Assembly (NCBI GenBank): GCA_965197475.1
Contig: CBDANF010000003.1
Coordinates: 1,504,001-1,568,000, forward strand
Direction of reading: 5' to 3'
From: Candidatus Poribacteria bacterium
GTDB lineage: Bacteria > Poribacteria > WGA-4E > WGA-3G
DNA length: 64,000 nt
The notes beneath the pieces are model-generated. The model did no database searches. It was given only the letters and a program-made list of their open reading frames with translations, and had not been told where the DNA came from. Shown piece by piece: positions 71 through 15,986 of this stretch; positions within the stretch are counted from its first letter, which is position 1; each line of letters begins with the position of its first letter. The position numbers were made by a program, and so were the translations under genes.

Positions 71-98
71 GGTTGTATAGATACAATTTACTTATAGT

Positions 99-127
99 TT
101 GTATCAAATGACCCCATGAGTTATACT
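99..127 (+). promoter_or_regulatory. sigma70-like promoter spanning the left junction of the element
   Basis: TTGTAT (99-104), 17 nt, TATACT (122-127); the TT of the -35 box comes from flanking DNA. Confidence 0.45.
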
Positions 128-194
128 ATTAGTATTCGTTAAACTAACGAGTAGATGTCCTCGGATCCCCGATAATCTATTCATGGAGGTCAAT

Positions 195-995
195 ATGAAC
201 CGCAAGAAGGATACCGCTTACGGTATCACTCGGCTCGAATCCAAGAATGCCAGAGCCGCGATTATTCAGAAGATTTCAGCAGACTTTAATCTAATGCCTC
301 TCGTTGCTGAAGCCTACTATAAACAGATTTCCACCTACTTTGAACAACACGCCGATGTGCACCTGACATCAGGGCAAATCTGCTACGAGGCAGTCGCCGC
401 AGAGGAACCCGCAGGTAAACATATCGCTTTAGCGAAAAAAGTTTCCTGTCGGCTAACTCTCAATGACACAAACGCCGATCTTGAAGTCTTAGCGAATTAT
501 GGTCTCGCAGGACTCAGACGGCATCGGATCCTCCGATTGACCCAAGAAGCTTATGACCAAGATGCCTTACTGAGCTACGAGGATTTAGCTGTATTATTAA
601 CCACCAGTCCTGCTACAGTCAAACGCGACATTCGACACTTGAAGCAGGATGGGTATTTCGTTATGACGCGCGGGACGAAACACGACATGGGCCCCGGCAC
701 TTCTCATAAAACCCAGGTCCTGGAGTTATATTTCAAAGCCTATACCTTCACCGAAATCGAGAAAAAGACGAACCACAGCGAACGAGCTGTCTACCGCTAC
801 TTGAAAGACTTTACACAAGTCGCTACGCTCCATCATCAAGGCTTTCCTAACGCACAGATACGCCTGATCACCCATCTATCTGACCGGTTGATCCGCGAGT
901 ATCTCTCACTCTATGAGGAATACCAACACACAGATCGCATAACCCAACTCCTTCACCCAGAACCTGAGGACACAAAAAAGGGGGACCTCTCATGA
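195..995 (+). CDS. DUF1670 domain-containing protein (copy A)
   Basis: Motifs RLTQEAYDQDALLSYEDLA..L..S..TVKRDI, TRGTKHDMGPGTSHK and HSERAVYRYLKDF are typical of DUF1670 (two HTH-like segments); GGAGG RBS precedes the ATG at 195. Confidence 0.8.
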   Translation: MNRKKDTAYGITRLESKNARAAIIQKISADFNLMPLVAEAYYKQISTYFEQHADVHLTSGQICYEAVAAEEPAGKHIALAKKVSCRLTLNDTNADLEVLANYGLAGLRRHRILRLTQEAYDQDALLSYEDLAVLLTTSPATVKRDIRHLKQDGYFVMTRGTKHDMGPGTSHKTQVLELYFKAYTFTEIEKKTNHSERAVYRYLKDFTQVATLHHQGFPNAQIRLITHLSDRLIREYLSLYEEYQHTDRITQLLHPEPEDTKKGDLS

Positions 996-1876
996 GCAAA
1001 CCTCTAACCCGCACGCAAATCAACGAGAAGAAATTCAGACGCATCAACGATAAGTCCCTACGACAGTTGCTCATTCACCGCTTTCTCAATGACTATGGTT
1101 ATGACAAAGGCGAAGTCACTGCCACCGCCATTGTTGATGATATTCTTAAGACCGTTGAAGACTATTTCGTGATTACCCTTCCTTTGGAGAAACTCGCCAC
1201 CGGCGATCAACTCCCGGATGAGCGTTTCTTGAGTTATGGACAACTCGTTTGGATGGCCGTCCCTATTGAAGAGCATCCAGAAAGAGGAAAGTCCATCGTC
1301 AAAACCCGCATGAAACCCGTCATCCTGACTTACCTCGCCGCAGAGGATATTGAATCCTTTCGCAACGGTTTCACCTCCCGGCAATTGCGGATCAATCGCT
1401 TGGTCCGCTGGTGTCATCAAGCTTATGACCAAGGGGCATTATTGACACAACTCGACTTGGCAGTTTTGCTCAATGTCTGCGATGCCGTTGTCTGTGATTA
1501 TGTTAATGAATGGCAAAAAACCACTGGAGAACTCTTGCCCACCCGTGGCAATATCCATGACTTATCGGGGGCTATTACCCATAAGAAAGAGATCATAACC
1601 CTCTATCTTCAAGGACATCTCACCCCCAGGATTGCCGCAAAGACCAAACACTCTAAGGAGGCAGTTGACCGATACATTCGCGATTATGAGAGCGTCAAAG
1701 TCGTTCGGAAAGCAACCGCAGATATTGATAAAATCTCACAGATTACACGACTTTCTAAACGCGTCATCTCTCAATATCTCGACCTCATACCGCAGCACCA
1801 ACTCCAAGCCATAGATGCAGACCTTGCCAATTCAGACTCAAACGATGAAGCCACTCACCAAGGAGAAGCCCAATGA
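992..1876 (+). CDS. DUF1670 domain-containing protein (copy B)
   Basis: RWCHQAYDQGALLTQLDLA, PTRGNIHDLSGAITHK and HSKEAVDRYIRDY; ATGA overlap with copy A suggests translational coupling. Confidence 0.8.
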   Translation: MSKPLTRTQINEKKFRRINDKSLRQLLIHRFLNDYGYDKGEVTATAIVDDILKTVEDYFVITLPLEKLATGDQLPDERFLSYGQLVWMAVPIEEHPERGKSIVKTRMKPVILTYLAAEDIESFRNGFTSRQLRINRLVRWCHQAYDQGALLTQLDLAVLLNVCDAVVCDYVNEWQKTTGELLPTRGNIHDLSGAITHKKEIITLYLQGHLTPRIAAKTKHSKEAVDRYIRDYESVKVVRKATADIDKISQITRLSKRVISQYLDLIPQHQLQAIDADLANSDSNDEATHQGEAQ

Positions 1877-1943
1877 GACCCTAATCCTATGTTCCCGACG
1901 AACTTTACTTCGCAAAACCGGGGCAGGTGCCTTGAAAATATGG

Positions 1944-1972
1944 TTGACAACCGCTACTGGTTTTGCTATACT
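1944..1972 (+). promoter_or_regulatory. Near-consensus sigma70 promoter in the 3' non-coding end of the element
   Basis: TTGACA (1944-1949), 17 nt, TATACT (1967-1972). Confidence 0.75.
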
Positions 1973-1978
1973 TTAGAC

Positions 1979-2104
1979 ACGTTTATCGCTAAACGCATCA
2001 TTTCTCAAAGAGGATGCTCGCGATCCCAACGCAACCCACTCATCAACGATCGCTGGGAAGCCAATAAACATCAGCCTTCCAGCTATCCTATGGTCATTTG
2101 ATAC
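1979..2104 (+). ncRNA. Candidate structured ncRNA of the DUF1670 element
   Basis: Starts just after the promoter; four consecutive stems: CGTTTA/TAAACG, GCATC/GATGC, GCGATC/GATCGC (22-nt loop), GCTGGGAAGC/GCCTTCCAGC (12-nt loop). Confidence 0.4.
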
Positions 2105-5100
2105 TATTTTCGTATTAACATTTTGCGTGTAGCAGTGAAATCGCCAGCAGTGAACATATAGAAGTAGACACCACTTGCCACCTTTTCACCGATGTTGTTT
2201 CTGCCATCCCAATGCGCAGCACGGCTGCGAGCCTGATACAGGCCTGCACGCTGATGTCCTAAGTCTAATGTACGCACTACATGTCCCTTGATGTCGTATA
2301 TTGTCAACGTGACATCGGCAGGTTTTGACAACTGATACGGTATCCACGTCTCTGGGTTAAACGGGTTGGGGTAGTTTGCTGCAAGCGCGTTCTCTCGACT
2401 CGCAGTAACCGTTACTTGCGCGGTAAGTGCTGGTCCGTTGTATTCTGCGATAGCGTCTGCGCCAACGGTTATGGTCAACGTGCCATCTGTAGTGAGATTT
2501 CCGTCAAAGGTCAATTCAATGGTGATCTCCGTGTCGCTTTGTCGGTCTATGTCAAAGGTGCCTACGGTAACACCCGATATACCGGTAACAGATACGGCAT
2601 CACTAATGACAAAGATAGACCTTTCAAATTTCCTGCCGCTGAGTGTGAGTGTAATGACGCTCCCATCCAGTGCAGCCTCAGTCAAAGGTGCAGCAGTTGA
2701 GGCAGACACTGATTCTGAAACAGCAGCGACAGATATTTGTGTCGTGAGTGCTGGTCCGTTGTATCCTGCGATAGCGTCTGCGCCAACGGTTATGGTCAAC
2801 GTGCCATCTGTAGTGAGATTTCCGTCAAAGGTCAATTCAATGGTGATCTCCGTGTCGCTTTGTCGGTCTATGTCAAAGGTGCCTACGGTAACACCCGATA
2901 TACCGGTAACAGATACGGCATCACTAATGACAAAGATAGACCTTTCAAATTTCCTGCCGCTGAGCGTGAGTGTAATGACGCTCCCATCCAGTGCAGCCTC
3001 AGTCAAAGGTGCAGCAGTTGAGGCTGCCACCGATTCTGAAACGGCAGCGACAGATATTTGTGTCGTGAGTGCTGGTCCGTTGTATCCCGCGATAGCTTCC
3101 GCTTCAACGGTGATAGTAAGCGTTGCATTGGTATCAAAGTTAGTGCCGTCAAATTCAAGTTTTATAGTAGCTTCCGTATCGCTTTCTTTGTCAGGGTCGT
3201 GCCAAGGGATTGTTACGCCAGCAATACCAGAAACAGATACCGCATTTCTAATGTCAATAGAACTTGCGTATTTCCTACCACTCAGTGTGAGTGTGACGAC
3301 ACTTCCGTGTAGGGTCGCCTCTGTCAAAGGTTCAGTAGTTGAGGCAGACACAGACTCCGTGTTAGCAGTGACCGGTATTTGTGCTATGAGATTGTCTCCA
3401 TCATAATCTTTAATTGCCGCTGCTCCTACAGATACCGTGAGTGTGTCATCAACAGTTAGATTGCCTTCATATTCAAGTTCAATCGTAACTTGTGTATCAC
3501 CGACACGAGTCACACCAAAGGTGTCAACGGTTACCCCTGTTATTCCGGATAGTGTGATTGCATTTCTGATTGTAACACTGGAACGATCAAAAACACCATT
3601 AACAAGTTTTAGAGTAATGACACTTCCATGCAATGTTGCTTCTGTAAGTGAAGCACCTTTGGATACGGTTAAGGTAGGGGTTGCGCCAACAGATTGTGGT
3701 TCGCTTTCGTCCTCATCATCTTCAACCACTTCAACTTCTTCAAGCTCCTCACTCTCTTTGATCTCTTCTTTTGGCGTTACTTCTTTTATCTGCCACGTAT
3801 TACCATCTATTCGCTCAGCAACAAAATTATGCTTCACGCCATTGATCGTACCCTTACTTTGAATGATCGTATTCTTACCTTGAGCGATTTGAAATAAACC
3901 ACCACCTACATGTGATGCAGAACCGTTTTCACGAACTGTAAATGTGCTATTTGTGCCGGGGTCAATACAACTGTCGCCTGGTTCCAACAGGTCTCCCACC
4001 GCACAGTAGTTTTGATCAGAAACATCCGTTTCTGAAACATCTGTTATGTTGATGGTGATATCAATACTATCAGTACCTCCGTTCCCATCCGAAACAGAGA
4101 CCGTAACAGAATAAGATGACTTCGTTTCATAATCCAATGCTGCGTTTGTCTGCAGTTGCCCAGTGGAAGTATCAATGCTAAACGCAGCCGCGTCCGTGCC
4201 AGTAAGGCTATATGTAAGTGTATCCTCACTATCCGCATCGGTTGCAGCGACAGCAGTCCCTATATTTTCACCCGCAGCAGTGTTCTCGGCAATGGAGCGT
4301 GTGGTGCTGTCGCCATCACTAAATACAGGGGCATTGTTTAAGGTTGCATCATCAGGTTGTGTATTACTCCTGTTATCTGCAATCTCCTTGATTTCCCAAG
4401 AATTTCCATCAACCTTTGTAGCGACGAAGCGGTATTCCTTATTATCTACCGTTGCGGAGATACTCATTGAATCATCATTAGAAACTTGGTTTATCCAGCT
4501 GAGCAACCATGGTAAGTTCGGAATATTCCATTTCGACCTCCCATCTTCTGACACTGAGAAAACAGCCTCAGAATCGGGATAGGTGCAGCTTTGTCCTGGT
4601 GTAAGAATGTCTCCTACCTGACACACGTTAGTTGTTGTATCAGTTCCAACCGATTCTGTTTCCGCTACATCAGTGATATTGATGGTGATCTCTATCGTAT
4701 CAGTGCCGCCTCTGGCATCAGAGACAGTGATGATGACAGAAAAGGATGACTGAGTCTCATAATCCAAAGCAGCCATTGTTTGCAGTTGCCCCGTAGCAGT
4801 ATCAATACTAAACGCTGCAGCATCCGTGCCACTAAGGCTATATGTAAGTGTGTCTCCGCTATCGGCATCAGCTGCAGAAACTGGTGTGCCGATGTTTTGC
4901 CCCGATTCAGTGTTTTCGGCGACAGAACGTGTCGTGCTGCTACCATCCGTGAAAACTGGTGCTGTGTTTGTAACGACAGCATCGAATACTGCCAGAGGTA
5001 GTTCTGCAGATTTGACAAACGCATATCCACTGTGGTTATGAGGTAATTCCGGTAATGTGTCAATATCCACAAGCACAGCATCCGTTGTTCCAGTAGTTCG

Positions 5101-8100
5101 ACTTACTGTAAAGACTTCACTCTCTACACTACCTGCAGAAATCGTAATATTCGTTGTACCACCGCTGATGCTCCCATCGGTAACGCTGATCAGCAGCACA
5201 ATATCAAACGGCGCGCCCGTGGGTGCTACTGCCTTAAACTGTCCATCTGCTACCTTTTCCAGTGAAACGTTAATAGGAAATGGGTCAACTGTGTTACCAC
5301 CCAAGCTGACCAAACTCAGCCTATTTAAACCTTTAAAGATGCCATCCGGCAGCGCACTCAAATCGTTGTTAGCCAACGAGAGTTCACTTAGTGATGTAAG
5401 TCTGTCAAAGATGCCAGCAGGCAACGTGGTAAAAGCATTGTTACCCAAGTGGAGCGTCGTCAGTGCGGTGATATCATCAAAGATGCCAGCAGGCAACGTG
5501 GTCAACTCGTTGGCATACAAGTAGAGGCTGTCGAGTGCGGTGAGACCATCAAAGATGTCAGCCGGCAAAGTGGTAAAAGAGTTGGCATACAAGGCGAGGC
5601 TGTCGAGTGCGGTGAGACCATCAAAGATGTCAGCCGGCAAAGTGGTAAAAGAGTTGTTACTCAAGTAGAGCGTCGTCAGTGTGGTGAGACCATCAAAGAT
5701 GTCAGCCGGCAACGTCGTCAACTCGTTGTCCCTCAAGTAGAGGTTGTCAAGTGCGGTGAGACCATCAAAGATGTCAGCCGGCAAAGTGGTCAACTCGTTG
5801 TCCCATAATCTGATCGTTGTCAGCGCGGTGAGACCGTCAAAATCACCGGATTTTAGGGCTGTGATGCCTTTGTTACTTAAGTTGAGTACCGTAATAGCGG
5901 CGAGGTGTGCTTCAGTCACATCCGCTGCATTATTTACGCCCGGCACTGCCTCCACAATCGCATCGCGCACCTGCGGCGTGCGGTTCCCTAACAAAGAACG
6001 GATTTCTGGTAATGGGTAGCTTAATGGTAAATCCGCAGATTTAACGAGTGTATACCCAGCGTGGTTTGATGGGAGGTTCGGTAATGTCCCGATATTTACG
6101 GTGACAGCCCCGGTGGTGTCAGGGGTTCGCGTCACTGTAAGCACTTCACTTTCCACACTACCTACGGAGATTGTGATAGTGCTTGCACCGCCTACAATGC
6201 TACCATTCGTTACGCTAATCGGTAACACAATAGTGAACGTCGCACCAGCGGGTGCAACTGCTTTGAACTGCCCATCTGCAACTTTTTCCAAAGAGATATT
6301 TAACGGTAGCGGATCAACTCCGATTTCACTTAATTGGAGTCCATTTAGTGAGGTAAGTCCGTCAAAAATTCCTGCGGGTAACGCAGTTAAAGCATTTCCG
6401 GTAAGGCCAATCCCTTGCAGTGCGGTAAGTCCCTCAAATACACCCGCTGGCAGTGTTGTCAATTGGTTGTGAGATAGGTCAATCTCTTGCAGTATGGTAA
6501 GTCCCTCAAATACACCCGCTGGCAGTGTTGTCAATTGGTTGTGAGATAGGTTAATCCCTTGCAGTGCGGTAAGTCCCTCAAATACACCCACTGGTAACGA
6601 GGTTATATTGTTACCAGGCATGTGGATACTTATAAGTTCAATGAGTCTGTCAAATACACCCAGTGGTAATGTGTTCAATTGGTTGTTTTCTATTGCAAGT
6701 TTTGTCAGTGAAGTAAGTCCGTCAAATATTCCCGCTGGCAGTGTGGTCAATGGGTTGCCAGATAGCCCGAGTGTTTCAAGTGCGGTGAGTCCGTTAAAAA
6801 TATCCGCTGGTAAGGATATTAATTCGCAGTCGAATATAGTGAGAGTATTAAGCGAAGTGAGACCGTCGAAATCACCGTGCTTTAGTGTAGTGATGTTCTG
6901 ATCAGATATATCCAACTCTTCAATAACAGTAAGGTGTGACTTCGTCACTTCCGCAGCAGAATTTACGTCCGGTATTGCATCCACAATAGCATTGACTACC
7001 TGTGGGGTGCGATGGCTGATCGGTGTGAATACTTCACCACCAAACTCGTTGAACACTAGTGGCAGATCATCGGATTTGACAAGTGTATAGCCAGAATGTT
7101 TTTCTGCTAACTGCGGTAATGTCTCAATATCCGCAGTAACTGCAAACGTTGTGCCGGGAATGCGGCTGACAGAGAAGATTTCGCTTTCCACATCTCCTAC
7201 TGGAATTGTAATATTTTCAACACCGACATCAATAACTCCATAAGCGATCCTGAGTGTGAGTTCAAGATCAAAAGGTGCACCAGAAGGAACAACTGCTTTA
7301 AACTGACCGTCACCAGCATGTTCAAGGCCGACACTAAGCGGCAGCGGGTCAACAGGATTACCTTTCAGATTGATAGTGGTGTCTGGGATAACTAAGTCAT
7401 CTGGTATTATGGAATCCTGTGAAATCACCTCACCTGTGATCAAATAGATGTAAAATGCTTTTATGGTAAAGTCATCTCTGTCATCAAAAATTCCTTTGAA
7501 GATACCTGTTGTCAATGAACGGAACTGGTTGTTCGCCAAATTAACGGCATTCAATGATGGAAGATTCTCAAATAGTCCTGCTGGTAACATCCTCAACTGA
7601 TTGTTACTCATATCTAATATTACCAATTTCGTGAGATTGTCAAAAATACCATCCGGTATTGAATTTAATTCGTTAGAGGATAGATTGAGCACGTTCAGGT
7701 TGGTGAACGTGTCAAAAATAGTGATTGGTAACGAGTTCAAATTGGTATTGGATATAAACAGGGTTCTCAGATTCGTGAGATATTGGAAGATGTTATCTGG
7801 CAATGTTGTGAATTCGTTGTTGTCTAACCCGAGTGCATCAAGGTTGGGCATGCCATCAAAATCACCGGGTTTTAGTTCTGTAATGTTCTTATTGGTCAGA
7901 TCCAGCACGGTAATAGCTGCGAGATGTACCTCAGTTATATCTGTAGCAGTATTGACACCCGGTACTGCGGCTACGATCGCATCTTGCACCTGTTGCGTTC
8001 GGTCAGTTACAGGTGTGTCACCGCTAAAGTCTGGTACTTGTGTCCCAGATATATCGTCTGGTAGAGTCAATACGATTAGGTTCGTCAGGTGGTCAAAATC

Positions 8101-11100
8101 GCTCCTTTGCACAGATATCAACGGGTTATTCGACAGATACAGGTGTGTCAGGTTGGTAAGATTGTGAAAGGGTCTGTCTGGCAGTGAATTCAACTGATTG
8201 CTGCTTAGGTTCAGTGTTGTCAGATGAGTAAGATTGTCAAAGAGCCCCTCTGGTAATGAACTCAACTGGTTGTTGTTTATGTAAAGTTCTTGCAGGTTGG
8301 TGTTATTGTCAAAAATGCCGACTGGTAAAGTGCTGATAACGTTGCTGCTTAGGTTCAGTGTTGTCAGATGAGTAAGATTGTCAAAGATCCTATCGGGTAT
8401 TGAACTCAACTTATTCCCATCCAAACGGATTTCTATGAGGTTATCCAGTCCGTCAAAATCACCGTATTTCAGTTCTGTAAGAGCCTGTGAATCACTAAAC
8501 CAATTGCCTCCAAGGTCTAAGTTAGACCCGCCAGAAGACGCATTTAGGGTGGTAATAGCTGTTAGATGTGCTTCCGTAACAAAGTGCCCCATATTATAAT
8601 TTTTCTTAGAATAAACACCATCAATTATGTATTCCCTCTCTACATTATGTAAAGTAGGATCTATCTCAGGTACTGATCCGATGATAGCATCAAGTATCTT
8701 TGGCGAACGTTCTGATACGGGTGTGGGGGCTCCAGGTAAGGCACTTATTACTGTTAGCGGTAATGATGATCTTAAGAATTCATGTACTATTCGACCGTCA
8801 GAGTTTGATAGACTCGGCAATGATACAATGTCTACAATAACTGCAGCAGTTGTGTTAGGAGTACGAGTCATTGTGAGAAGTCCACTTTCTGAATTACCTT
8901 TGGGTATCGTGATGCTGGTTGCACCACCATTGATACTACCATTTGCAAAGATAAGAGGTAGTTCCAAGTCAATCGGTGCAGGGGTTGGTAAAACAGCCTT
9001 AAATTGACCTTCACCAATCTTTTCCAATCCTATGGATAGAGGATAAGGCTTATTTTTGTGATTGAGATATAAAAGCGAGGTAAGGTTATCAAATATACCC
9101 GGTGGTAAGCTCGTTAGATAGTTGTTAAACAGGTGGAGCCTTTCAAGTGCTGTGAGGTTATCAAATATGCCAGCTGGTAATGTCGTTAGAAGGTTGTTAT
9201 GCAGGTGGAGGATTTCAAGTGCTGTGAGGTTATCAAATATGCCAGCTGGTAATGTCGTTAGAAGGTTGTTATGCAGGTGGAGGATTTCAAGTGCTGTGAG
9301 GTTATCAAATAATCCCTGTGGCAACGATGATAACGGGGTGTTATGCAGGTAGAGCACTTCCAACTCACTGAGGTTATCAAATATGCCAGCTGGTAATGTC
9401 GTTAGAAGGTTGTTATGCAGGTAAAGACCTTTAAGCGATGTGAGGTTATCAAATAAACCCTGTGGCAACGATGATAACTGGTTGTAAGACAGGGAGAGAC
9501 TTTCAAGTGCTGTGAGGTTATCAAATATACTCGGTGGCAACGATGATAACTGGTTGCCAGAACTGTAGAGAGACAGGTAGAGCCCTTCCAATGCGGTGAG
9601 GTCATCAAACAAACCCTGTGGCAACGATGATAACTGGTTGCCAGACAGGTCGAGCCTTTGAAGTGCTGTCAAACCACTGAAATCGCCGTGTTTTAGAGAT
9701 GTAATGTTTTGACGACGCAGATATAAATACGTAATTCCAGCAAGATGACTGGCGGTGATATCCGCAATACTCGAAACATTAAGATCATTTGATTTGACCG
9801 CGTTGAGAATCGCTTCTGCTACCTGCGGTGTCCGAACACCGAAAATATACTGGGATGCCGCCGTTGCAGTGAATGTAATCGTCTGCGAAACGTCTTGCAC
9901 ACTGACATCCACGGTGCTTATGCCTACTATATTGCCAAGCGTCAGTGTGCTTTCTGCTATACCGTCTGCATTGGTCGTGACGTTTATTGTGCTGAGTGTA
10001 CCACCCCCTGCTGTGACAGAAAACGTTACAGGCACACCTTCAAATGCTACATCGCTTGCATCCCGCACTTCCACAACAAACGGCTGTGCAAGCGTTGTGC
10101 CGATGTCCGCCTGCTGTGTATCCCCTGATATTTTCTCAACTGCTGTTACCGTGCGATTGTCAAAGTCTACAATAACATTTCTCACCTGCAGTGTAGGTAT
10201 GTGCGTATAGATAGATGGATAACTCAACAGATTACCCCGCGCATCTATCTCGTCATCCATCCCCAATTCTGTGTTTGCCACTAACGGTGATAGATCGGAT
10301 ACAGCGTTATTCTGAAAATATAACTTTCCCAGACTGGTCAAGTTTTGGACAGCGGATATATCCGATATGCTGTTGTTCGGCATATCTAACCACTCAAGAT
10401 TGATTAGGTTCTGAATAGACGATATACCTGATATTGTGTTATTGCCGATGACGAGTTCTGTTAGGTTCGTTAAGCCTGCAACCGCAGAAATATCCGTAAT
10501 AGTGTTTTCATTCAGATATAACTGTGTCAAATTTATCAGATTTGATACCGTTGATATATCTGTAATACTATTTTCATTGAGTCGCAGCTGCGTGAGATTT
10601 ATCAAACCTGATAAATGAGATATATCTGAAATACTGTTCCCCCATAAATATAGCTTAGATAAATTCGTTAAGCCTGATAGAGAGGAAAAGTTCGTGATAT
10701 TGTTATCCCACAGCTGCAACTCTGCGAGGTTCGTCAGTCCCGCAAGTGCAGATATATCCGAAACCGAGTTGTCGCCAAGAATGAGCGTTGTCAGATTGGT
10801 GGCTGTCTCAAGTCCTGTTAAGTTGTTGATACTGGCAGCTTGGGCATTCAACGTCGTGAGTGTTTCCATCTCTGTTTCTGAAATAGTGGCACCAGATGTT
10901 TTACCGAGCGCGGATTCTATTTTTGCACGTAGATTCGCATCGGGAATGTCTACGATAACCTCTGCAGGTGCGGTTACGGTGACACTGACGGCAATGGAGC
11001 AATTGTTATCAGTATTACTCTCACCGGTGACACTATCCACGCAGGCACCGTAATAGTAAGTGCCAGGGGTTGTTGGTGCAGTAACTGTAATATAGCGACG

Positions 11101-12531
11101 GATGGTGTCATTTACACCCAGTGGGTTACTGGGGTATCCACGGATCTGCGTATCCTCTGTCGAGATGACTGCATCCGAGGAGCGATAATACGTTAGGGTT
11201 GTCGCACTCGATTCTGCTGTGCCAGCATTTCTGAGGGTTGCATAGAGTCTAAACTGCTCTCCAGGTTCAACGGTATCGGGAACTGCCTCCACCGCTTCAA
11301 CGACCAAGTCAGGTGTTGATGGGACAACTTCTGCGGGGATACCGAGGGCAATACCGTCTGGAACATTCAACCCAGTGATGACGTCCTCAACGTTTGAACC
11401 ATCCAAGTTCGCACGCTGGATTTTACCGTTAGTAAACCTTTCCGTAGCAGGATTCCAGTCCGTATGTGTCCAATACATCTTTCCACCCACAACATCTAAT
11501 GCTATACCCCATGGAGCCTCCAGTCCGCTTGTGATGAGGTCTTGCACATTAGAGCCATCAAGGTTGGCACGTTGGATTTTATCCGTGCCATGGTCTATCC
11601 AGTACATCTTACCACCCGATACATCTAACGCTATACCTCTTGGAATGCTCAATCCCTGTGTAACGAGGTCTTCGACGTTGGAACCATCCAAATTCGCACG
11701 TTGGATTTTACTAGGACGCAAATTTGTCCAGTACATCTTACCACCCGACACGTCTAACGTTAAACCTGTTGGAGCGTCCAATCCCTGTGTAACGAGGTCT
11801 TCGACGTTGGAACCATCCAAATTCGCACGTTGGATTTTATCTGTCTGATTATCTACCCAGTACATCTTACCACCCGCTATATCTAACGCTATACCAAATG
11901 GAGAAGTTAGTCCGCTTGTGACGAGGTCTTGAACATTAGAGCCGTCAAGGTTTACGCGCTGGATTTTATCCGTGCCAGCATCTGTCCAATATATCGGTGG
12001 GCTATCGGGGTCAACGACAAGGACTTTGGGTTTGGTGGTTGCTGTCGGGGGTGTTGACGGTAAGTCTCCTGTGACCCGAAGAAGAGTTGAACTGACGTAT
12101 TTTTCCCTGACACCATCAACGTTCATCTCGATAACCACCGTGTATTCACCTGCGCTTGTTGGCGAATAGCCGCACAACTCTTGATCGCGTGCTGTAGTCG
12201 GAACATCAACCCATGGACTTGTTGAATTGTCTCGCCTTATCCATTTTGAACTGTGCATTTGGTAGCTGACACCGTTAATCGAAATGGTACCCTCGCCCTG
12301 TATACAACCTCCGATCCCAACACTTTGAAATAGACCTCCAATTCTGAAGACAATGCGATCTTCTGATACAGTAAGTCCGTCTAACACAGTATATCCGGTA
12401 GGTGGCGAGACGTAATTTTCGACGACTTCTATGCTTAATGCGTAACCAACACAAGGCAGCCCACATATCAACAATACCACTATAAGAATTGACATGTTGA
12501 TTTTTCGATTCACAACTAACATTTTCATCAT
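2104..12531 (-). CDS. Giant secreted eukaryote-like protein: YWTD (LDL-receptor class B) repeats, CARDB, internalin-type LRRs, Big-1 Ig-like, several capped typical-LRR modules, two cadherin domains, Ig-like repeats, C-terminal FlgD-Ig/T9SS-like sorting domain
   Basis: Signal peptide; GGKMYWTD..KIQRANLDGS repeats; PDLVVE..CARDB; IPDANLR internalin cap; LTTLPAGIFDNLT LRRs; APVF..RSVAEN..LDYET cadherins; C-terminal NYPNPFNPETWIPYQL...ASGVYFY...TRKMLIRK. Confidence 0.9.
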   Translation of the reverse strand: MMKMLVVNRKINMSILIVVLLICGLPCVGYALSIEVVENYVSPPTGYTVLDGLTVSEDRIVFRIGGLFQSVGIGGCIQGEGTISINGVSYQMHSSKWIRRDNSTSPWVDVPTTARDQELCGYSPTSAGEYTVVIEMNVDGVREKYVSSTLLRVTGDLPSTPPTATTKPKVLVVDPDSPPIYWTDAGTDKIQRVNLDGSNVQDLVTSGLTSPFGIALDIAGGKMYWVDNQTDKIQRANLDGSNVEDLVTQGLDAPTGLTLDVSGGKMYWTNLRPSKIQRANLDGSNVEDLVTQGLSIPRGIALDVSGGKMYWIDHGTDKIQRANLDGSNVQDLITSGLEAPWGIALDVVGGKMYWTHTDWNPATERFTNGKIQRANLDGSNVEDVITGLNVPDGIALGIPAEVVPSTPDLVVEAVEAVPDTVEPGEQFRLYATLRNAGTAESSATTLTYYRSSDAVISTEDTQIRGYPSNPLGVNDTIRRYITVTAPTTPGTYYYGACVDSVTGESNTDNNCSIAVSVTVTAPAEVIVDIPDANLRAKIESALGKTSGATISETEMETLTTLNAQAASINNLTGLETATNLTTLILGDNSVSDISALAGLTNLAELQLWDNNITNFSSLSGLTNLSKLYLWGNSISDISHLSGLINLTQLRLNENSITDISTVSNLINLTQLYLNENTITDISAVAGLTNLTELVIGNNTISGISSIQNLINLEWLDMPNNSISDISAVQNLTSLGKLYFQNNAVSDLSPLVANTELGMDDEIDARGNLLSYPSIYTHIPTLQVRNVIVDFDNRTVTAVEKISGDTQQADIGTTLAQPFVVEVRDASDVAFEGVPVTFSVTAGGGTLSTINVTTNADGIAESTLTLGNIVGISTVDVSVQDVSQTITFTATAASQYIFGVRTPQVAEAILNAVKSNDLNVSSIADITASHLAGITYLYLRRQNITSLKHGDFSGLTALQRLDLSGNQLSSLPQGLFDDLTALEGLYLSLYSSGNQLSSLPPSIFDNLTALESLSLSYNQLSSLPQGLFDNLTSLKGLYLHNNLLTTLPAGIFDNLSELEVLYLHNTPLSSLPQGLFDNLTALEILHLHNNLLTTLPAGIFDNLTALEILHLHNNLLTTLPAGIFDNLTALERLHLFNNYLTSLPPGIFDNLTSLLYLNHKNKPYPLSIGLEKIGEGQFKAVLPTPAPIDLELPLIFANGSINGGATSITIPKGNSESGLLTMTRTPNTTAAVIVDIVSLPSLSNSDGRIVHEFLRSSLPLTVISALPGAPTPVSERSPKILDAIIGSVPEIDPTLHNVEREYIIDGVYSKKNYNMGHFVTEAHLTAITTLNASSGGSNLDLGGNWFSDSQALTELKYGDFDGLDNLIEIRLDGNKLSSIPDRIFDNLTHLTTLNLSSNVISTLPVGIFDNNTNLQELYINNNQLSSLPEGLFDNLTHLTTLNLSSNQLNSLPDRPFHNLTNLTHLYLSNNPLISVQRSDFDHLTNLIVLTLPDDISGTQVPDFSGDTPVTDRTQQVQDAIVAAVPGVNTATDITEVHLAAITVLDLTNKNITELKPGDFDGMPNLDALGLDNNEFTTLPDNIFQYLTNLRTLFISNTNLNSLPITIFDTFTNLNVLNLSSNELNSIPDGIFDNLTKLVILDMSNNQLRMLPAGLFENLPSLNAVNLANNQFRSLTTGIFKGIFDDRDDFTIKAFYIYLITGEVISQDSIIPDDLVIPDTTINLKGNPVDPLPLSVGLEHAGDGQFKAVVPSGAPFDLELTLRIAYGVIDVGVENITIPVGDVESEIFSVSRIPGTTFAVTADIETLPQLAEKHSGYTLVKSDDLPLVFNEFGGEVFTPISHRTPQVVNAIVDAIPDVNSAAEVTKSHLTVIEELDISDQNITTLKHGDFDGLTSLNTLTIFDCELISLPADIFNGLTALETLGLSGNPLTTLPAGIFDGLTSLTKLAIENNQLNTLPLGVFDRLIELISIHMPGNNITSLPVGVFEGLTALQGINLSHNQLTTLPAGVFEGLTILQEIDLSHNQLTTLPAGVFEGLTALQGIGLTGNALTALPAGIFDGLTSLNGLQLSEIGVDPLPLNISLEKVADGQFKAVAPAGATFTIVLPISVTNGSIVGGASTITISVGSVESEVLTVTRTPDTTGAVTVNIGTLPNLPSNHAGYTLVKSADLPLSYPLPEIRSLLGNRTPQVRDAIVEAVPGVNNAADVTEAHLAAITVLNLSNKGITALKSGDFDGLTALTTIRLWDNELTTLPADIFDGLTALDNLYLRDNELTTLPADIFDGLTTLTTLYLSNNSFTTLPADIFDGLTALDSLALYANSFTTLPADIFDGLTALDSLYLYANELTTLPAGIFDDITALTTLHLGNNAFTTLPAGIFDRLTSLSELSLANNDLSALPDGIFKGLNRLSLVSLGGNTVDPFPINVSLEKVADGQFKAVAPTGAPFDIVLLISVTDGSISGGTTNITISAGSVESEVFTVSRTTGTTDAVLVDIDTLPELPHNHSGYAFVKSAELPLAVFDAVVTNTAPVFTDGSSTTRSVAENTESGQNIGTPVSAADADSGDTLTYSLSGTDAAAFSIDTATGQLQTMAALDYETQSSFSVIITVSDARGGTDTIEITINITDVAETESVGTDTTTNVCQVGDILTPGQSCTYPDSEAVFSVSEDGRSKWNIPNLPWLLSWINQVSNDDSMSISATVDNKEYRFVATKVDGNSWEIKEIADNRSNTQPDDATLNNAPVFSDGDSTTRSIAENTAAGENIGTAVAATDADSEDTLTYSLTGTDAAAFSIDTSTGQLQTNAALDYETKSSYSVTVSVSDGNGGTDSIDITINITDVSETDVSDQNYCAVGDLLEPGDSCIDPGTNSTFTVRENGSASHVGGGLFQIAQGKNTIIQSKGTINGVKHNFVAERIDGNTWQIKEVTPKEEIKESEELEEVEVVEDDEDESEPQSVGATPTLTVSKGASLTEATLHGSVITLKLVNGVFDRSSVTIRNAITLSGITGVTVDTFGVTRVGDTQVTIELEYEGNLTVDDTLTVSVGAAAIKDYDGDNLIAQIPVTANTESVSASTTEPLTEATLHGSVVTLTLSGRKYASSIDIRNAVSVSGIAGVTIPWHDPDKESDTEATIKLEFDGTNFDTNATLTITVEAEAIAGYNGPALTTQISVAAVSESVAASTAAPLTEAALDGSVITLTLSGRKFERSIFVISDAVSVTGISGVTVGTFDIDRQSDTEITIELTFDGNLTTDGTLTITVGADAIAGYNGPALTTQISVAAVSESVSASTAAPLTEAALDGSVITLTLSGRKFERSIFVISDAVSVTGISGVTVGTFDIDRQSDTEITIELTFDGNLTTDGTLTITVGADAIAEYNGPALTAQVTVTASRENALAANYPNPFNPETWIPYQLSKPADVTLTIYDIKGHVVRTLDLGHQRAGLYQARSRAAHWDGRNNIGEKVASGVYFYMFTAGDFTATRKMLIRK
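2426..3067. repeat. Near-identical 321-bp tandem duplication (107-aa Ig-like domain x2)
   Basis: agtgctggtccgttgtat recurs at 2426, 2747 and 3068; the two units are almost identical at DNA level. Confidence 0.9.
5402..5800. repeat. 72-bp tandem LRR-coding repeats
   Basis: tcaaagatgtcagccggcaa recurs with a 72-nt period; a similar array lies at ~9140-9660. Confidence 0.85.
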
Positions 12532-12641: not shown

Positions 12642-15600
12642 TTACTTCCGTATCAACATCTTGCGGGTTGCGGTGAAATCGCCTGCGGTGAGGGTGTAAA
12701 AATAGACACCACTTGCAGCAGGTTCACCGACTGCGTTTCTGCCATCCCAATGCGCAGCACGGCTGCGAGCCTGATACAGGCCTGCACGCTGATGCCCCAA
12801 ATCTAAGACACGTATAACATGTCCCTTGATGTCATATATCGTCAGTGTGACATCGGCAGGTTTTGACAACTGATACGGTATCCACGTCTCTGGGTTGAAC
12901 GGGTTCGGATAATTCGCAAGCAGTGCGGTTTCTTCCGGTGTGAACAGTGCCAAGAGTCGCTCCAGAACAGCAATACCCCGTTGGTAGGTGCGAGAGGTGT
13001 TTCCTGATGCGCGTGCCTCAATGAGATATCCTTGGAGTTGTGCTTTCGTGAAATGTGATTGCACATGCGCGCGGGCAGCGGGTGCAGCTGCCGCACTGTC
13101 TACCGCGGCCGCAACCAAGATGAAATCGTCCACGTTGACAATTTCATCTCCGTTGACATCCGCAGCATTGCTCCCGGTACGTCCATACCGTTGTGCGACT
13201 ACAATCAGATCATTAACATCCACAATCCCATCACGGTTCACGTCCTCCTTTACGATTGCGGGATTAACTGGAGAAAAAATGCCAATGGCTATGCCGTCTG
13301 GCCTGTCTAATCCTTGTGTGACGAGGTCTTCGATGTTTGAGCCGTCCAAGTTCGCACGTTGGATTTTATCTGTGCCAAAATCTGTCCAATACATCTTGCC
13401 ACCCACAACATCTAACGCTATGCTCCTTGGATATCTCAATCCTTGTGTGACAAGGTCTTCAACATTGGATCCATCCAGGTTTGCCCGTTGGATTTTATCT
13501 GTGCCAAAATCTGTCCAATACATCTTGCCACCTACCTCGTCTAACGCTATGCCCCTTGGCAAGCTCAATCCTTGTGTGACAAGGTCTTGAACGTCTGATC
13601 CATCAAAGTTTGCCCGTTGGATTTTTGTTGTGCCAAAATCCGTCCAATACATCTTGCCATCCACAACATTTAACGCTATACCCCTTGGCTCCTCCAATCC
13701 TTGTGTGACAAGGTCTTCAACATTGGATCCATCCAGGTTGGCACGTTGGATTTTATCTGTGCCATTATCAGTCCAATACATCTTGCCACCCACAACATCT
13801 AACGCTATGCTCCCTGGATATCTCAATCCTTGTGTGACAAGGTCTTCAACATTGGATCCATCCAGGTTTGCCCGTTGGATTTTATCTGTGCCAAAATCTG
13901 TCCAATACATCTTGCCACCTGCCACGTCTAACGCTATGCCCCTTGGCAAGCTCAATCCTTGTGTGACAAGGTCTTGAACGTCTGATCCATCAAGGTTTGC
14001 CCGTTGGATTTTTGTTGTGCCAAAATCCGTCCAAAAAATGGTTAGCCGAGCTTCATCTCTATTTGCAGTGACAAGTATTTCTGTGGTTAGCGCGGTGCCT
14101 TTATGGTTAGTTATCGCACCATCGGCAACGTTGAAGGTTAGTGGGGTATCAGTGAATAAGTCAGTACCATCAAATTTTAGTTCAAACGTCACTTGTCTAT
14201 CACTGATACGTTGCACTGTATCGGTATCTAAGGTTACACCGTTGATACCAGAAACGTTCACCGCCTCTTTGATTGTGGCAATATCCTCCTCAAAAGCGGC
14301 CCCCGTAATTGCTAACTTGACAGTGCTCCCATTCAACGTTGCTTCTGTCAACGGAGACACGGCCGAAGCGGAAATAAATTCTTTCAAAGCAGTGACAGGT
14401 ATTTCTGTCGTAATATCTTCACCTATATTGTTGGCTATTGCTCCTGTTGCGATGCTAAAGGTGAGTGCGGAATTCGTATCAAAATCGGTGTCATCATAAT
14501 TCAGTTCAACTGTAATTTCTGTATCGCTAATACGTTGCGCAGTAGTGGTATCTAAGGTTACACCACTTATGCCAGAGACCTTCAACGCCTCTCTAATTGT
14601 GGAGATGTCTTGTTCATAAGCGGCACCAGTCAGTGTCAGGGTGACAGTGCTTCCATCCAGCGTCGTTTCTGTCAACGAAGACACAACCGAAGCAGAAACA
14701 CCTTCTTTGATAGTGGTTACAGATATTTCTGTCGTAATATCTTCACCTATATTGTTGGCTATTGCTCCTGTTGCGATGCTAAAGGTGAGTGTGGAATCCG
14801 TATCAAAATCGGTGTCATCATAATCCAGTTCAACTGTAATTTCTGTATCGCTAATACGTTGCGCAGTAATGGTATCTAAGGTTACACCGTTGATACCAGA
14901 GACGGTTACTGCCTCTTTGATTTTGGAGATGTCCTGCTCAAAAACAGCATCTGTAAGGATTAGCGTGACAGTGCTTCCATCCAGCGTCGTTTCTGTCAAT
15001 GGAGACACGACCGAAGCAGAAACAAACTCTTTCACAGCAGTGACAGGTATTTCTGAGGTAAGTGTTTCTCCTATGTCACCTACGATAGCTGATGCATCAA
15101 TACTAAAGGTAAGGACTGTATCCGTGTCAAAGTCAGTATCATCAAAATCCAGTCCAACCGTTATTTCTCTATCGCTGAGGCGTTGTGCTGTAGCAGTGTC
15201 TATCGTTACGCCATCGATACCTGTTACCGTCACGGCATTTATGATCGTGGCAACGTCCGCCTCGTAAGCACCAGTACCCCAACTTAATGTCAATGTGATC
15301 ATACTCTCATCCAAAGTTGTCTCTGTCAACGGAGGTGTAGCGGATGCAAATACGCCTTTATAAGGGGTGACTGGGACTTCTGCAGTGAGTGCGGGACCGT
15401 CGTAGTTATCGATTGCAGCTGCTTCAACGGTGAAGGTGAGCGTGGCATCGGTCTCAAAGTCACCGTCAAATTTAAGCTCAACCGTGACCGTTGTGTCATT
15501 TACTCTATTCACCCGTTCTACCTGCCTGTATCTGGTTTCATAGTATCCCGCACACCATCCGACACAGAACGGATTGAACGGGACGAATTGCCTGTAGCTC

Positions 15601-15869: not shown

Positions 15870-15986
15870 AAGAAACTCCTTTGTAAACATTCCTTGAAGA
15901 TCAGGTGGACAAAGCCACCCACCATTTTTGAAATAGGTTGTAGTTGAGTTGGTTAATGCATTCAGGACTTACGCAAAATCCTATTA

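What the first reader, a model, noticed from the sequence alone, without database searches (positions are those of the whole stretch)
101..2104. TIR-bounded 2-kb element whose only genes are two DUF1670 paralogs: candidate new transposon class
Seen: perfect 13-bp TIRs (GTATCAAATGACC) enclose two translationally coupled paralogous ORFs. The right TIR ends inside the TAG stop of the 3475-aa gene. Joining the flanks restores a TAA stop followed by a hairpin that resembles the one after the paralogous gene, which is what an insertion scar looks like. There is no exact multi-base TSD (flanks TAGTTT | TATTTT). Known: DUF1670 is functionally uncharacterised to my knowledge, and I see no DDE, HUH, serine- or classical tyrosine-recombinase motif. 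Inference: the two proteins form a heteromeric transposase/recombinase. Residues shared by both copies (TRG..HD....S/T-HK and HS..AV.RY..D) are candidate catalytic R/H/K/Y positions.
Basis: partly seen in the sequence, partly recalled or inferred. Interest (0 to 1): 0.9.

Follow-up and report, generated by a model that had tools for sequence, protein, structure and literature searches.

The report
New site-specific insertion element family
This is one of about twenty copies of a 2-kb jumping-gene element whose only genes are two related DNA-binding proteins of unknown function; it slips in at the very end of secreted-protein genes without changing the protein, and may work through an unknown kind of DNA-moving enzyme.

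Summary
The element is real and mobile. The genome holds 18 full-length copies (92-100% identical) plus two deletion derivatives. Three kinds of evidence for an empty site give the true insert as 2,016 bp, window 94-2109: a same-genus genome, contigs from two sequencing runs, and a second empty/filled pair in another genus.

There is no target duplication beyond an ambiguous TT. Insertion is specific for orientation and site. In 18 of 20 cases the right end abuts the final Lys codon of a gene with a T9SS sorting domain, and the element supplies its own AAA-TAG, so the host protein is unchanged. Sister lineages insert into the loop of a REP-like palindrome.

ORF A and ORF B are ancient DUF1670 paralogues under purifying selection. 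The same A-then-B, TIR-bounded, multicopy 1.7-2.0 kb unit occurs in many bacterial and archaeal phyla. B usually lies in the -1 frame behind a slippery A AAA AAG, and natural A-B fusions exist.

Neither protein shows a known catalytic fold: both look like multi-HTH DNA binders.

Best reading: a new insertion-sequence family whose DUF1670 pair is, or recruits, a non-canonical recombinase.

The parts
94..2109 (+). Whole insertion element, 2,016 bp. It can equally be placed at 92-2107 because of a 2-bp TT ambiguity.
   Evidence: Empty site in a same-genus genome. Contigs in runs X1 and X3 skip 91->2108 = 2016 bp, both=2. The genome holds 18 full-length copies with identical ends.
94..113 (+). Left end: ATAGTTT plus the left 13-bp TIR (101-113).
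   Evidence: The sequence ATAGTTTGTATCAAATGACC is conserved in all the genera sampled.
2092..2109 (+). Right end: the right 13-bp TIR (2092-2104) plus TATTT. On the minus strand, TATTT plus the last TIR base supplies the AAA codon and TAG stop of the host gene.
   Evidence: TATTT is present at all 20 right ends in the genome, whatever the target.
88..93 (-). Displaced original end of the host gene (AAG TAA on the minus strand), now left of the element.
   Evidence: The empty site reads ...CGA AAG TAA. Across 18 left ends, position -6 is Y in 17, -5/-4 is TA (or CA, giving TGA), and -3 is Y.
195..995 (+). ORF A, a DUF1670 protein of 266 aa. An upstream ATG at 183 gives 270 aa; GGAGG at 186-190 favours the start at 195.
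   Evidence: PF07900 E 4e-62. Of 122 variable columns among copies, 82 are at codon position 3. AF2 pLDDT 88.8, helical with one beta hairpin.
974..980 (+). A AAA AAG heptamer in the ORF A frame. A -1 slip here reads on into ORF B without a stop, giving a putative A-B fusion.
   Evidence: Read. The same kind of in-frame heptamer, with the B frame open, occurs in 22 of 37 pairs from other phyla, and B is in the -1 frame in 31 of 37. Copy 11 is a natural 564-aa fusion, and fused 2x and 3x DUF1670 proteins exist.
992..1876 (+). ORF B, a DUF1670 paralogue of 294 aa.
   Evidence: PF07900 E 1.2e-61. Of 95 variable columns, 75 are at codon position 3. The B clade separates from the A clade with 100/100 support.
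1877..2091 (+). Conserved non-coding right arm. The 70-aa ORF at 1889-2101 is not coding.
   Evidence: 19 of 215 columns are variable, the lowest share in the element. ORF3 shows variable columns 5/6/8 by codon position.
1944..1972 (+). Outward-facing sigma-70-like promoter TTGACA-17-TATACT with TG before the -10.
   Evidence: 11 of 12 matches. The -35/-10 pair is kept in all 10 diverged elements aligned. Function is not shown.
2104..12531 (-). Target gene: a 3475-aa LRR/cadherin/LDL-receptor-repeat protein with a T9SS type A sorting domain at its C terminus. Its last codon and its stop are encoded by the element.
   Evidence: TIGR04183 38.2 bits (cut-off 23) and PF18962 28.6 bits (cut-off 27) on the last 150 aa.

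Best explanation
Window 94-2109 is an autonomous, site-specific insertion element of a previously undescribed family. The family is defined by an ancient gene pair, DUF1670-A followed by DUF1670-B.

Proposed mechanism:
1. A and B, and probably an A-B fusion made by a -1 frameshift at A AAA AAG, are multi-HTH proteins that bind the pseudo-palindromic CA-N3-TG core inside each 13-bp TIR.
2. They pair the two ends. Joined head to tail, the ends would read ...GATACTAT-TT-ATAGTTTGTATC..., a palindrome centred on TT.
3. They themselves exchange strands at a TT dinucleotide with a chosen target, conservatively and in one orientation. No target duplication results.
4. In this genome the chosen target is the last Lys codon of genes with a T9SS sorting domain. 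The right end carries AAA-TAG, so the host protein is unchanged.
5. The conserved outward promoter in the right arm would drive A/B only from a circular or tandem junction.

Shown: mobility, exact ends, empty sites, target and orientation specificity, gene content, purifying selection, cross-phylum distribution, and absence of known catalytic folds.

Inferred: DNA binding to the TIRs, the A-B frameshift, a circular intermediate, and catalysis by A/B.
For: - Copies: 18 full copies and 2 deletion derivatives, nine at about 100% identity.
- Partner element: all 38 exact TIR hits in the genome lie in these copies. Near-matches of the TIR core number 441, against about 429 that I calculated by hand to expect by chance (not a tool result), so no partner element is indicated.
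- Empty sites: G003 against the window, contigs of runs X1 and X3 skipping exactly 2016 bp, and G014 against G033.
- Target: 18 of 20 right ends abut CTD-type ORF ends, always in the same orientation. 15 of 38 ORFs with the CTD motif carry the element. The target domain was identified.
- Selection: third-codon-position bias in A (82 of 122 variable columns) and B (75 of 95), but not in ORF3.
- Family range: PF07900 was found in 37 of 121 genomes of the phylum, with 1 to 22 hits per genome. 88 of 90 candidate loci were confirmed in other phyla and in archaea.
- Same unit elsewhere, 1.7 kb and TIR-bounded: an actinomycete MAG (6 copies), Halanaerobium congolense (3 copies plus a fragment), Methanovorans and Atribacteria.
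- Ancient pair: A and B form two clades split by one 100/100 branch with largely matching internal groupings.
- Fusion: frame and slippery-site statistics and natural fusions.
- No known enzyme: no family in Pfam, NCBIfam, PHROGs or PADLOC, none in PDB profile searches, and no Foldseek hit at E<=0.001 for either model.
Against: - Both proteins look like pure DNA binders (wHTH + linker + two HTH units + a small helical/beta-hairpin N domain). No nuclease, DDE, HUH, Ser- or Tyr-recombinase-like fold was seen.
- The conserved polar residues (R, D, H, K, H, Y) sit in HTH or linker positions that could simply contact DNA.
- No circle junction appeared among the joints listed from the four runs. These were contigs only, and 10 joints were not shown.
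- Expression was not shown: the RNA-library runs were available only as contigs.
- I could not consult ISfinder, so an unpublished database entry for such elements cannot be excluded.
Confidence: 0.45

Rival explanations
1. Host-enzyme hijack. A/B are only the element's end-binding and target-choosing adaptors. Cutting and joining are done by a universal host enzyme that they recruit, for example a Xer-type tyrosine recombinase or a topoisomerase, as elements that exploit Xer do at dif.
For: - Neither protein has a catalytic fold, despite confident models.
- The family spans Bacteria and Archaea, which fits dependence on a universal host factor.
- Insertion is conservative, orientation-specific and free of duplication.
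- The head-to-tail junction would be a palindrome around a short central TT (read).
Against: - The insertion sites are many (20 in this genome) and are not a single dif-like site.
- By eye I saw no convincing resemblance of the ends or targets to the dif consensus as I recall it. No systematic dif search was run.
- The known Xer-exploiting elements, as I recall them, carry no such targeting proteins.
Confidence: 0.3
2. Non-autonomous cassette. The element is a mobile insertion cassette (MIC-like) whose DUF1670 genes are passengers or regulators. It is moved in trans by a known transposase encoded elsewhere that recognises the same ends.
For: No catalytic domain is encoded in the element. Deletion derivatives that keep both ends exist (432 bp and 1772 bp), which shows that the ends suffice in cis.
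Against: - No other sequence in the genome carries the TIR: 38 of 38 exact hits lie in the copies, and near-matches are at my hand-calculated chance level.
- The same two-gene unit with lineage-specific TIRs recurs across many phyla and both domains, with A and B co-diverging. That is hard to reconcile with dependence on an unlinked partner.
- A and B are under purifying selection within the copy family.
Confidence: 0.1
3. Nucleic-acid-guided element. An RNA made from the conserved right-arm promoter guides or catalyses insertion, by analogy with the bridge or seeker RNAs of IS110/IS1111 or the guide sequences of IS200/IS605. A/B would act as its protein partners.
For: - The right arm is the most conserved part of the element and carries a near-consensus outward promoter kept in all 10 lineages aligned.
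- The element inserts 3' of a TAYTT-like pentamer and itself ends in TATTT. This recalls the IS200/IS605 cleavage-site logic as I remember it.
Against: - No Rfam family matched.
- RNAalifold on 8 lineages gave a covariation term of -0.23 and only 1 compensatory pair out of 15.
- 8-mer identity or complementarity between the non-coding ends and the 20 target flanks was not above shuffles: 0 and 1 hits, against shuffled means of 2.7 and 4.2.
Confidence: 0.07
4. Not a transposon. In this reading it is a regulator gene pair attached to T9SS cargo genes and spread among them by homologous recombination or gene conversion through the conserved CTD sequence.
For: The right flank is a conserved coding sequence in 18 of 20 cases.
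Against: - The left flanks are unrelated between copies.
- Two copies lie at sites with no CTD.
- Sister lineages sit in REP-like hairpins.
- Elements in other phyla have different flanks.
- The boundaries are exact to the base, and empty sites are precise.
Confidence: 0.03

Closest known systems
IS1 and IS3 families (OrfA / OrfAB made by a -1 frameshift)
   Same: Small TIR-bounded element. Two overlapping ORFs with the second in the -1 frame behind an A-rich slippery heptamer. The first ORF is an HTH protein. A possible junction-driven promoter logic. The IS1/IS3 properties are recalled; the features of this element come.
   Different: No DDE/RNase-H domain in ORF B or anywhere else. No 3-9 bp target duplication. 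Strict site and orientation specificity.
IS110/IS1111 family
   Same: Site- and orientation-specific insertion, often into REP-like palindromes. No or minimal duplication. A long non-coding region with a promoter. Subterminal inverted repeats in IS1111. These properties are recalled, and partly seen in the abstract of bioRxiv 10.1101/2024.04.26.591405 listed.
   Different: No DEDD transposase. No evidence for a structured or target-complementary RNA.
IS200/IS605 family
   Same: Insertion 3' of a short specific motif next to the left end. The right end finishes with a similar motif. No duplication. Precise empty sites. The family logic is recalled; the data for this element are.
   Different: This element has true terminal inverted repeats and no HUH/Y1 TnpA.
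Serine-recombinase elements (IS607, large serine integrases)
   Same: Conservative exchange at a central 2-bp overlap within a palindromic junction, with directionality from a non-palindromic dinucleotide. The mechanism is recalled. Here a 2-bp TT ambiguity sits at the centre of ACTAT-TT-ATAGT.
   Different: No serine recombinase domain or fold was found.
Xer-exploiting integrative elements (IMEX) and mobile insertion cassettes (MIC)
   Same: Mobile DNA that encodes no recognisable recombinase of its own (recalled).
   Different: IMEX use one dif site per replicon, whereas this element occupies 20 sites. MICs share their ends with a resident IS, and none was found here.

Membership tests
Pfam PF07900 (DUF1670) | Match to the family HMM above the gathering score (25 bits). 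| tested here: met
   ORF A scores 209.9 bits and ORF B 208.3 bits.
DDE transposase insertion sequences (IS1, IS3, IS4, IS5, IS630 and others) | RNase-H-like DDE catalytic domain in an element-encoded protein. | tested here: not met
   No transposase family in Pfam or NCBIfam; the only such hit is an IS1 HTH-region match at E 0.056. Foldseek found no hit at E<=0.001 for A or B. The models contain only 2-3 short strands.
DDE transposase insertion sequences | Fixed-length direct target duplication flanking the element. | tested here: not met
   Two empty/filled pairs and the run contigs show at most 2-3 bp of ambiguous T.
IS110/IS1111 | DEDD (RuvC-like) transposase plus a structured guide RNA in the non-coding region. 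| tested here: not met
   No such domain. No Rfam hit, no covariation and no 8-mer complementarity to targets.
IS200/IS605 | HUH Y1 transposase, and subterminal hairpins instead of TIRs. | tested here: not met
   No Y1_Tnp match. A perfect 13-bp TIR is present. Hairpin folding of the ends was not run.
Serine or tyrosine site-specific recombinases | Resolvase/invertase or phage-integrase catalytic domain. | tested here: not met
   No Pfam or NCBIfam match. PDB profile searches return only a designed HTH repeat protein. In Foldseek, resolvase chains appear only at E about 2.
Insertion sequence in the broad sense | Multiple copies with identical ends at unrelated sites, plus empty alleles. | tested here: met
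T9SS type A sorting domain (the target gene) | Match to TIGR04183 / PF18962 above the cut-offs at the C terminus. | tested here: met
   38.2 bits against a cut-off of 23, and 28.6 bits against 27, on the last 150 aa.
ISfinder families, including ISNCY orphans | Listing of a DUF1670-type element in the curated IS database. | not testable with these tools
   No access to ISfinder. The NCBIfam transposase models gave no match. Full-text searches for DUF1670 and PF07900 found 0 papers.

The most novel reading that the evidence does not exclude
The DUF1670 A/B pair, or its frameshift fusion, is a new class of DNA recombinase/transposase built only from HTH-type modules and unrelated to DDE, DEDD, HUH, serine or tyrosine enzymes. 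It would perform scarless insertion, specific for orientation and sequence, in both Bacteria and Archaea. Lineages would retarget between gene 3' ends and REP-like hairpins.
Probability: 0.4. Interest if true: 0.95.

Novelty: categorically new. Interest (0 to 1): 0.85.

Why it matters
All well-studied prokaryotic insertion sequences move by a handful of enzyme classes. This compact element is clearly active: it has near-identical copies, population-level empty alleles, and a spread across many phyla and both prokaryotic domains. Yet it encodes only two paralogous multi-HTH proteins.

Either these proteins are a new kind of recombinase, or they show a new way of borrowing a host enzyme. Both outcomes would be new mobile-DNA biology. 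The first might also yield a small, sequence-specific, scarless DNA-insertion tool.

The element also assigns a biological role, as a mobile-element protein, to a widespread domain of unknown function (PF07900).

In this genome, apparently a sponge symbiont, the element sits at the end of at least 15 of 38 T9SS cargo genes identified by motif. These include genes for giant eukaryote-like repeat proteins. The element leaves the proteins intact, but it replaces their 3' context and points a strong promoter back into them, which could affect their expression and recombination.

Tried and rejected
- A-B binding. Complex prediction gave no verdict: scores 0.26 and 0.29, below the mark of 0.32, and the controls were not run. 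I take nothing from it for or against binding.
- Structured RNA in the right arm. No Rfam family. RNAalifold showed no covariation.
- Guide-like matches. No 8-mer match between the non-coding ends and the target flanks above shuffles. Shorter guides are not excluded.
- Third small ORF (1889-2101). Rejected as coding: variable columns by codon position are 5/6/8, and it has no family.
- Partner IS with related ends. None found.
- More empty sites. Searching five same-genus genomes with loci L005 and L001 found flanks only on one side.
- tblastn against plasmids: no match.
- PHROGs gave only transcription-regulator hits, and PADLOC gave none.
- The Atlas returned only DUF1670 or HTH clusters.
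- The PDB hit 8vd6 is a designed HTH repeat protein and is not informative. I saw the search listing and abstract of PMC12339374 only.
- Circle junction. No such joint appeared among the joints listed. That call laid contigs only, and 10 joints were not shown, so it is not evidence of absence. Parts of the window without cover in RNA contigs are likewise not evidence.
- Literature searches. DUF1670: 0 papers. PF07900: 0 papers. Poribacteria + insertion sequence + transposase: 4 papers, none relevant by title or abstract. The ISNCY queries gave 2 and 5 papers, none relevant by title or abstract. IS + T9SS + stop codon gave 38 papers, of which 10 were listed and none describes this. I read no paper in full, and supplements were not available.
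- I considered a 5-bp duplication (TAYTT) and rejected it. The left pentamer varies with the original stop context (TACTT, TATTT, CACTT) while the right one is always TATTT, and in the REP-type lineage the left pentamer is TTTTT.
Full report
**1. The observation**

The 13-bp perfect inverted repeats GTATCAAATGACC lie at 101-113 and 2092-2104 (I2; sequence). Between them, two ORFs (183 or 195 to 995, and 992 to 1876) overlap as ATGA. Both match Pfam DUF1670, with E 4e-62 and 1.2e-61. They are 35% identical to each other over 192 residues. The last base of the right repeat is the G of the TAG stop of the 3475-aa gene on the minus strand.

**2. It is mobile, and its real ends are 94 and 2109**

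- The window's own genome (5.7 Mb, 3 contigs) holds 22 BLAST matches to 101-2104. These are 18 full-length copies at 92-100% identity (nine at about 100%), one copy with an internal deletion, and one 432-bp derivative that keeps both ends.
- All 38 exact occurrences of the repeat belong to these copies.
- Sequence left of position 89 is unrelated between copies. Positions 94-100 (ATAGTTT) are constant, and 89-93 reads TAYTT or CACTT.
- A genome of the same genus (G003) carries the same locus empty. It reads ...GATACAATT TACTT TCGTATTAAC..., against ...CAATT TACTT [ATAGTTT-TIR...TIR-TATTT] TCGTATT... in the window.
- Independently, contigs of two sequencing runs from two studies (X1, depth 280, 23 nt on the short side; X3, depth 789, 91 nt) join 91 to 2108. 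They skip exactly 2016 bp with 2 ambiguous bases.
- The insert is therefore 2,016 bp, at 94-2109 or, shifted by the TT, at 92-2107. There is no target duplication beyond that TT.
- A second, unrelated empty/filled pair gives the same ends. G014 has GAAACCGAGTTTTTT|TCTTCAAAACTCGGTTTC followed by ttaatcgcagca. G033 has the element between the same two halves and the same flanks.

**3. Target choice**

- On the minus strand the empty site reads ...CGA AAG TAA, and the filled site reads ...CGA AAA TAG. The element has gone in between the penultimate codon and the final Lys codon. It pushes the old AAG-TAA to its left side (window 88-93) and provides a new AAA-TA from its last five bases, plus G from the repeat. 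The host protein sequence is unchanged.
- This holds generally. Among 18 left ends, the base at -6 is T or C in 17, which gives stop base A or G. Positions -5/-4 are TA (or CA, giving TGA), and position -3 is C or T, giving AAG or AAA.
- Of the 20 right ends in the genome, 18 abut an ORF ending ...G.YFY.L.....(R/K)(K/R)M.I.K, always in the same orientation.
- The last 150 residues of the window's target match the T9SS type A sorting domain: TIGR04183 at 38.2 bits (cut-off 23) and PF18962 at 28.6 bits (cut-off 27).
- The target protein itself is a giant LRR/cadherin/LDL-receptor-repeat protein.
- A motif scan found 38 ORFs of at least 150 aa with such a tail. Fifteen carry the element. The other 23 mostly end AAG TAA with unrelated downstream sequence. 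This shows that ATAGTTT is part of the element and not part of the target.
- In two other genera (G033/G014 and G119) the same element core sits in the loop of a 13-bp-stem palindrome. That palindrome is itself a REP-like repeat, with 151, 88 and 254 copies against 0 for the reversed control.
- In an actinomycete MAG, the right flanks of 6 copies share a GC-rich motif (TGCGCGCGTTC...).
- Site specificity is thus a family trait, and the site differs between lineages.

**4. The genes**

- Among the 18 aligned copies, variable columns fall mostly at third codon positions in A (19/21/82) and in B (13/7/75). In the 70-aa ORF at 1889-2101 they do not (5/6/8), so that ORF is not a gene.
- A and B are intact in 15 of the 18 copies. 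Copy 11 has one extra base and encodes a 564-aa A-B fusion.
- In the window, the A frame contains A AAA AAG at 974-980. A -1 slip there runs without a stop into B.
- I picked 37 complete A/B pairs from other phyla. In 31 of them B is in the -1 frame. In 22 there is an in-frame X XXY YYZ heptamer, mostly A-rich, within the last 120 nt of A with the B frame open. An A/G-rich run here could also simply be the ribosome-binding site of B, so frameshifting is an inference.
- A search of 1.84 billion representatives found 1254 relatives at E<=0.001. These include single polypeptides with two (about 500-545 aa) or three (about 930-950 aa) DUF1670 units and no other Pfam domain.

**5. What the proteins look like**

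- AlphaFold models are confident: A has pLDDT 88.8 and B has 79.6. They show a three-helix N-terminal part, one beta hairpin carrying the conserved (E)PAGK motif, a long helix, a winged HTH, a lower-confidence linker (TRG...D.G...SHK), and two further HTH-like units.
- Foldseek against the PDB gave no hit at E<=0.001 for either model. The weak hits are MntR-type winged helices, paired domains, TFIIB-like cyclin folds and a CRISPR-repeat-binding HTH protein.
- Profile searches of PDB sequences returned only a designed HTH repeat protein.
- NCBIfam, which carries the models NCBI uses to name IS transposases, gave nothing better than E 0.056, and that hit was in the HTH region of IS1.
- PHROGs and PADLOC added nothing.
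I read it as a recognition helix by recalled comparison with those families.
- The residues conserved in both paralogues are R118/R139, D168/D190, H175/H197, K176/K198, H198/H220, Y206/Y228 and Y240/Y262. They remain candidates either for DNA contact or for chemistry.

**6. The family beyond this genome**

- PF07900 is present in 37 of 121 sampled genomes of the phylum, with 1 to 22 hits per genome. The phylum is Candidatus Poribacteria, going by the names two sources give to 91%-identical proteins. Among the 14 control genomes only Methanosarcina acetivorans was positive. This patchy, copy-variable pattern is typical of an IS.
- A scan of one genome per species with a 12-sequence alignment confirmed 88 of 90 candidates. 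The 80 loci kept carry titles from Thermoplasmatota, Methanosarcinales, ANME lineages, Atribacteria, Actinomycetota, Chloroflexota, Halanaerobium, Neomarinimicrobiota, Acidobacteriota and others.
- Where several copies were available, the shared block is 1.68-1.75 kb and holds only A then B. The cases are an actinomycete MAG (6 copies at about 100%), Halanaerobium congolense (3 copies plus a fragment), Methanovorans (2) and Atribacteria (2).
- Each has lineage-specific inverted repeats sharing a CA-N3-TG core (GGACATTTGTCC, GGGCATATGCCC, GGTCAAATGGG, CGAATGAGCCG) and shows no evident duplication.
- In a maximum-likelihood tree of the window plus 25 pairs, A and B are separated by one branch with 100/100 support. 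The two halves show largely the same groupings, and these cut across phyla and domains. The pair is therefore ancient, co-inherited and horizontally mobile.

**7. Other features**

- The right arm (1877-2091) is the most conserved part, with 19 of 215 columns variable.
- It holds a near-consensus outward promoter, TTGACA-17-TATACT, at 1944-1972, kept in all 10 diverged elements aligned.
- I found no RNA family, no covariation and no guide-like matches to targets.
- Joined head to tail, the ends would read GATACTAT-TT-ATAGTTTGTATC, a palindrome centred on the ambiguous TT. Such a junction occurs naturally next to one copy in G089.
- The promoter would then read into A/B. I infer this junction-driven expression by analogy with circle-forming IS (recalled).

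**8. Explanation and rivals**

- The data fit a conservative insertion with fixed orientation at a TT. This resembles site-specific recombination more than DDE transposition.
- I rate self-catalysis by A/B (or the A-B fusion) at 0.45.
- I rate recruitment of a universal host enzyme at 0.30.
- I rate mobilisation by an unlinked known transposase at 0.10. No partner with these ends exists in the genome, and the unit is self-contained in many phyla.
- I rate a nucleic-acid-guided mechanism at 0.07 and a non-transposon reading at 0.03.

**9. Novelty**

- Full-text searches found no paper mentioning DUF1670 or PF07900. None of the listings describes such an element.
- In organisation the element resembles IS1/IS3. 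In behaviour it resembles IS110, IS607 and IS200/605. It fails the defining enzyme test of each (see the membership table).
- I therefore rate it as lying outside the known kinds. The caveat is that its chemistry is unknown.

Noticed in passing
G000:C3:685919-687923 (locus L011): Copy 11 of the element is 2005 bp, one base longer than the others, and encodes a single 564-aa A-B fusion protein.
   Followed up: partly
G000:C3:94120-94551 (L020/L021) and G000:C3:434730-436501 (L019/L022): Two internal-deletion derivatives, 432 bp and 1772 bp, keep both ends. The 432-bp one is MITE-like and also sits at the end of a CTD gene.
   Followed up: partly
L014 (G000:C3:845190-847193) and L016 (G000:C2:1160548-1162551): Two copies share an identical 50-nt left flank but have different right flanks. 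L012 and L015 share nearly identical right flanks but have different left flanks. This suggests recombination between copies, duplicated cargo genes, or an assembly effect.
   Followed up: no
L041 (G089:C1, about 244000-250000), left junction: A right-end-like 18-mer (GGTTATTTGATACTATTT) lies directly against the left end of a full copy. This is a natural head-to-tail junction, or the remnant of a tandem insertion.
   Followed up: partly
L133, L138, L139 (G119, G014) and genome-wide in G033/G119/G014: A REP-like palindrome GAAACCGAGTTTT-N6-AAAACTCGGTTTC occurs 88-254 times per genome. Some pairs of arms are about 82 bp apart and enclose a short unit, so they may be a MITE.
   Followed up: partly
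L001 1027-1163 and 1338-1478 (left flank of copy 1): A repeat of about 137 bp is present in dozens of copies (88-99% identity) in the same-genus genome G003.
   Followed up: no
window 2104-12531 (-) and 12642-15890 (-): The target is a 3475-aa eukaryote-like repeat protein (LRR, cadherin, LDL-receptor class B, CARDB) with a T9SS tail. A 1082-aa ORF follows on the same strand.
   Followed up: partly
window about 2000-2013 (right arm) and homologous positions in other lineages: The conserved motif ATTTCTC(A/G)AAG reads ATTTCTTGA(A/C)G in lineages that target the REP-like hairpin. There it resembles the target around the insertion point (TTT|CTTGAA). With 8 lineages this cannot be told from chance.
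   Followed up: partly
window 98-127: A weak promoter-like pair (TTGTAT-17-TATACT) overlaps the left TIR. Its -10 is kept as TAnAnT in other lineages, which could allow autoregulation by proteins bound to the TIR.
   Followed up: no
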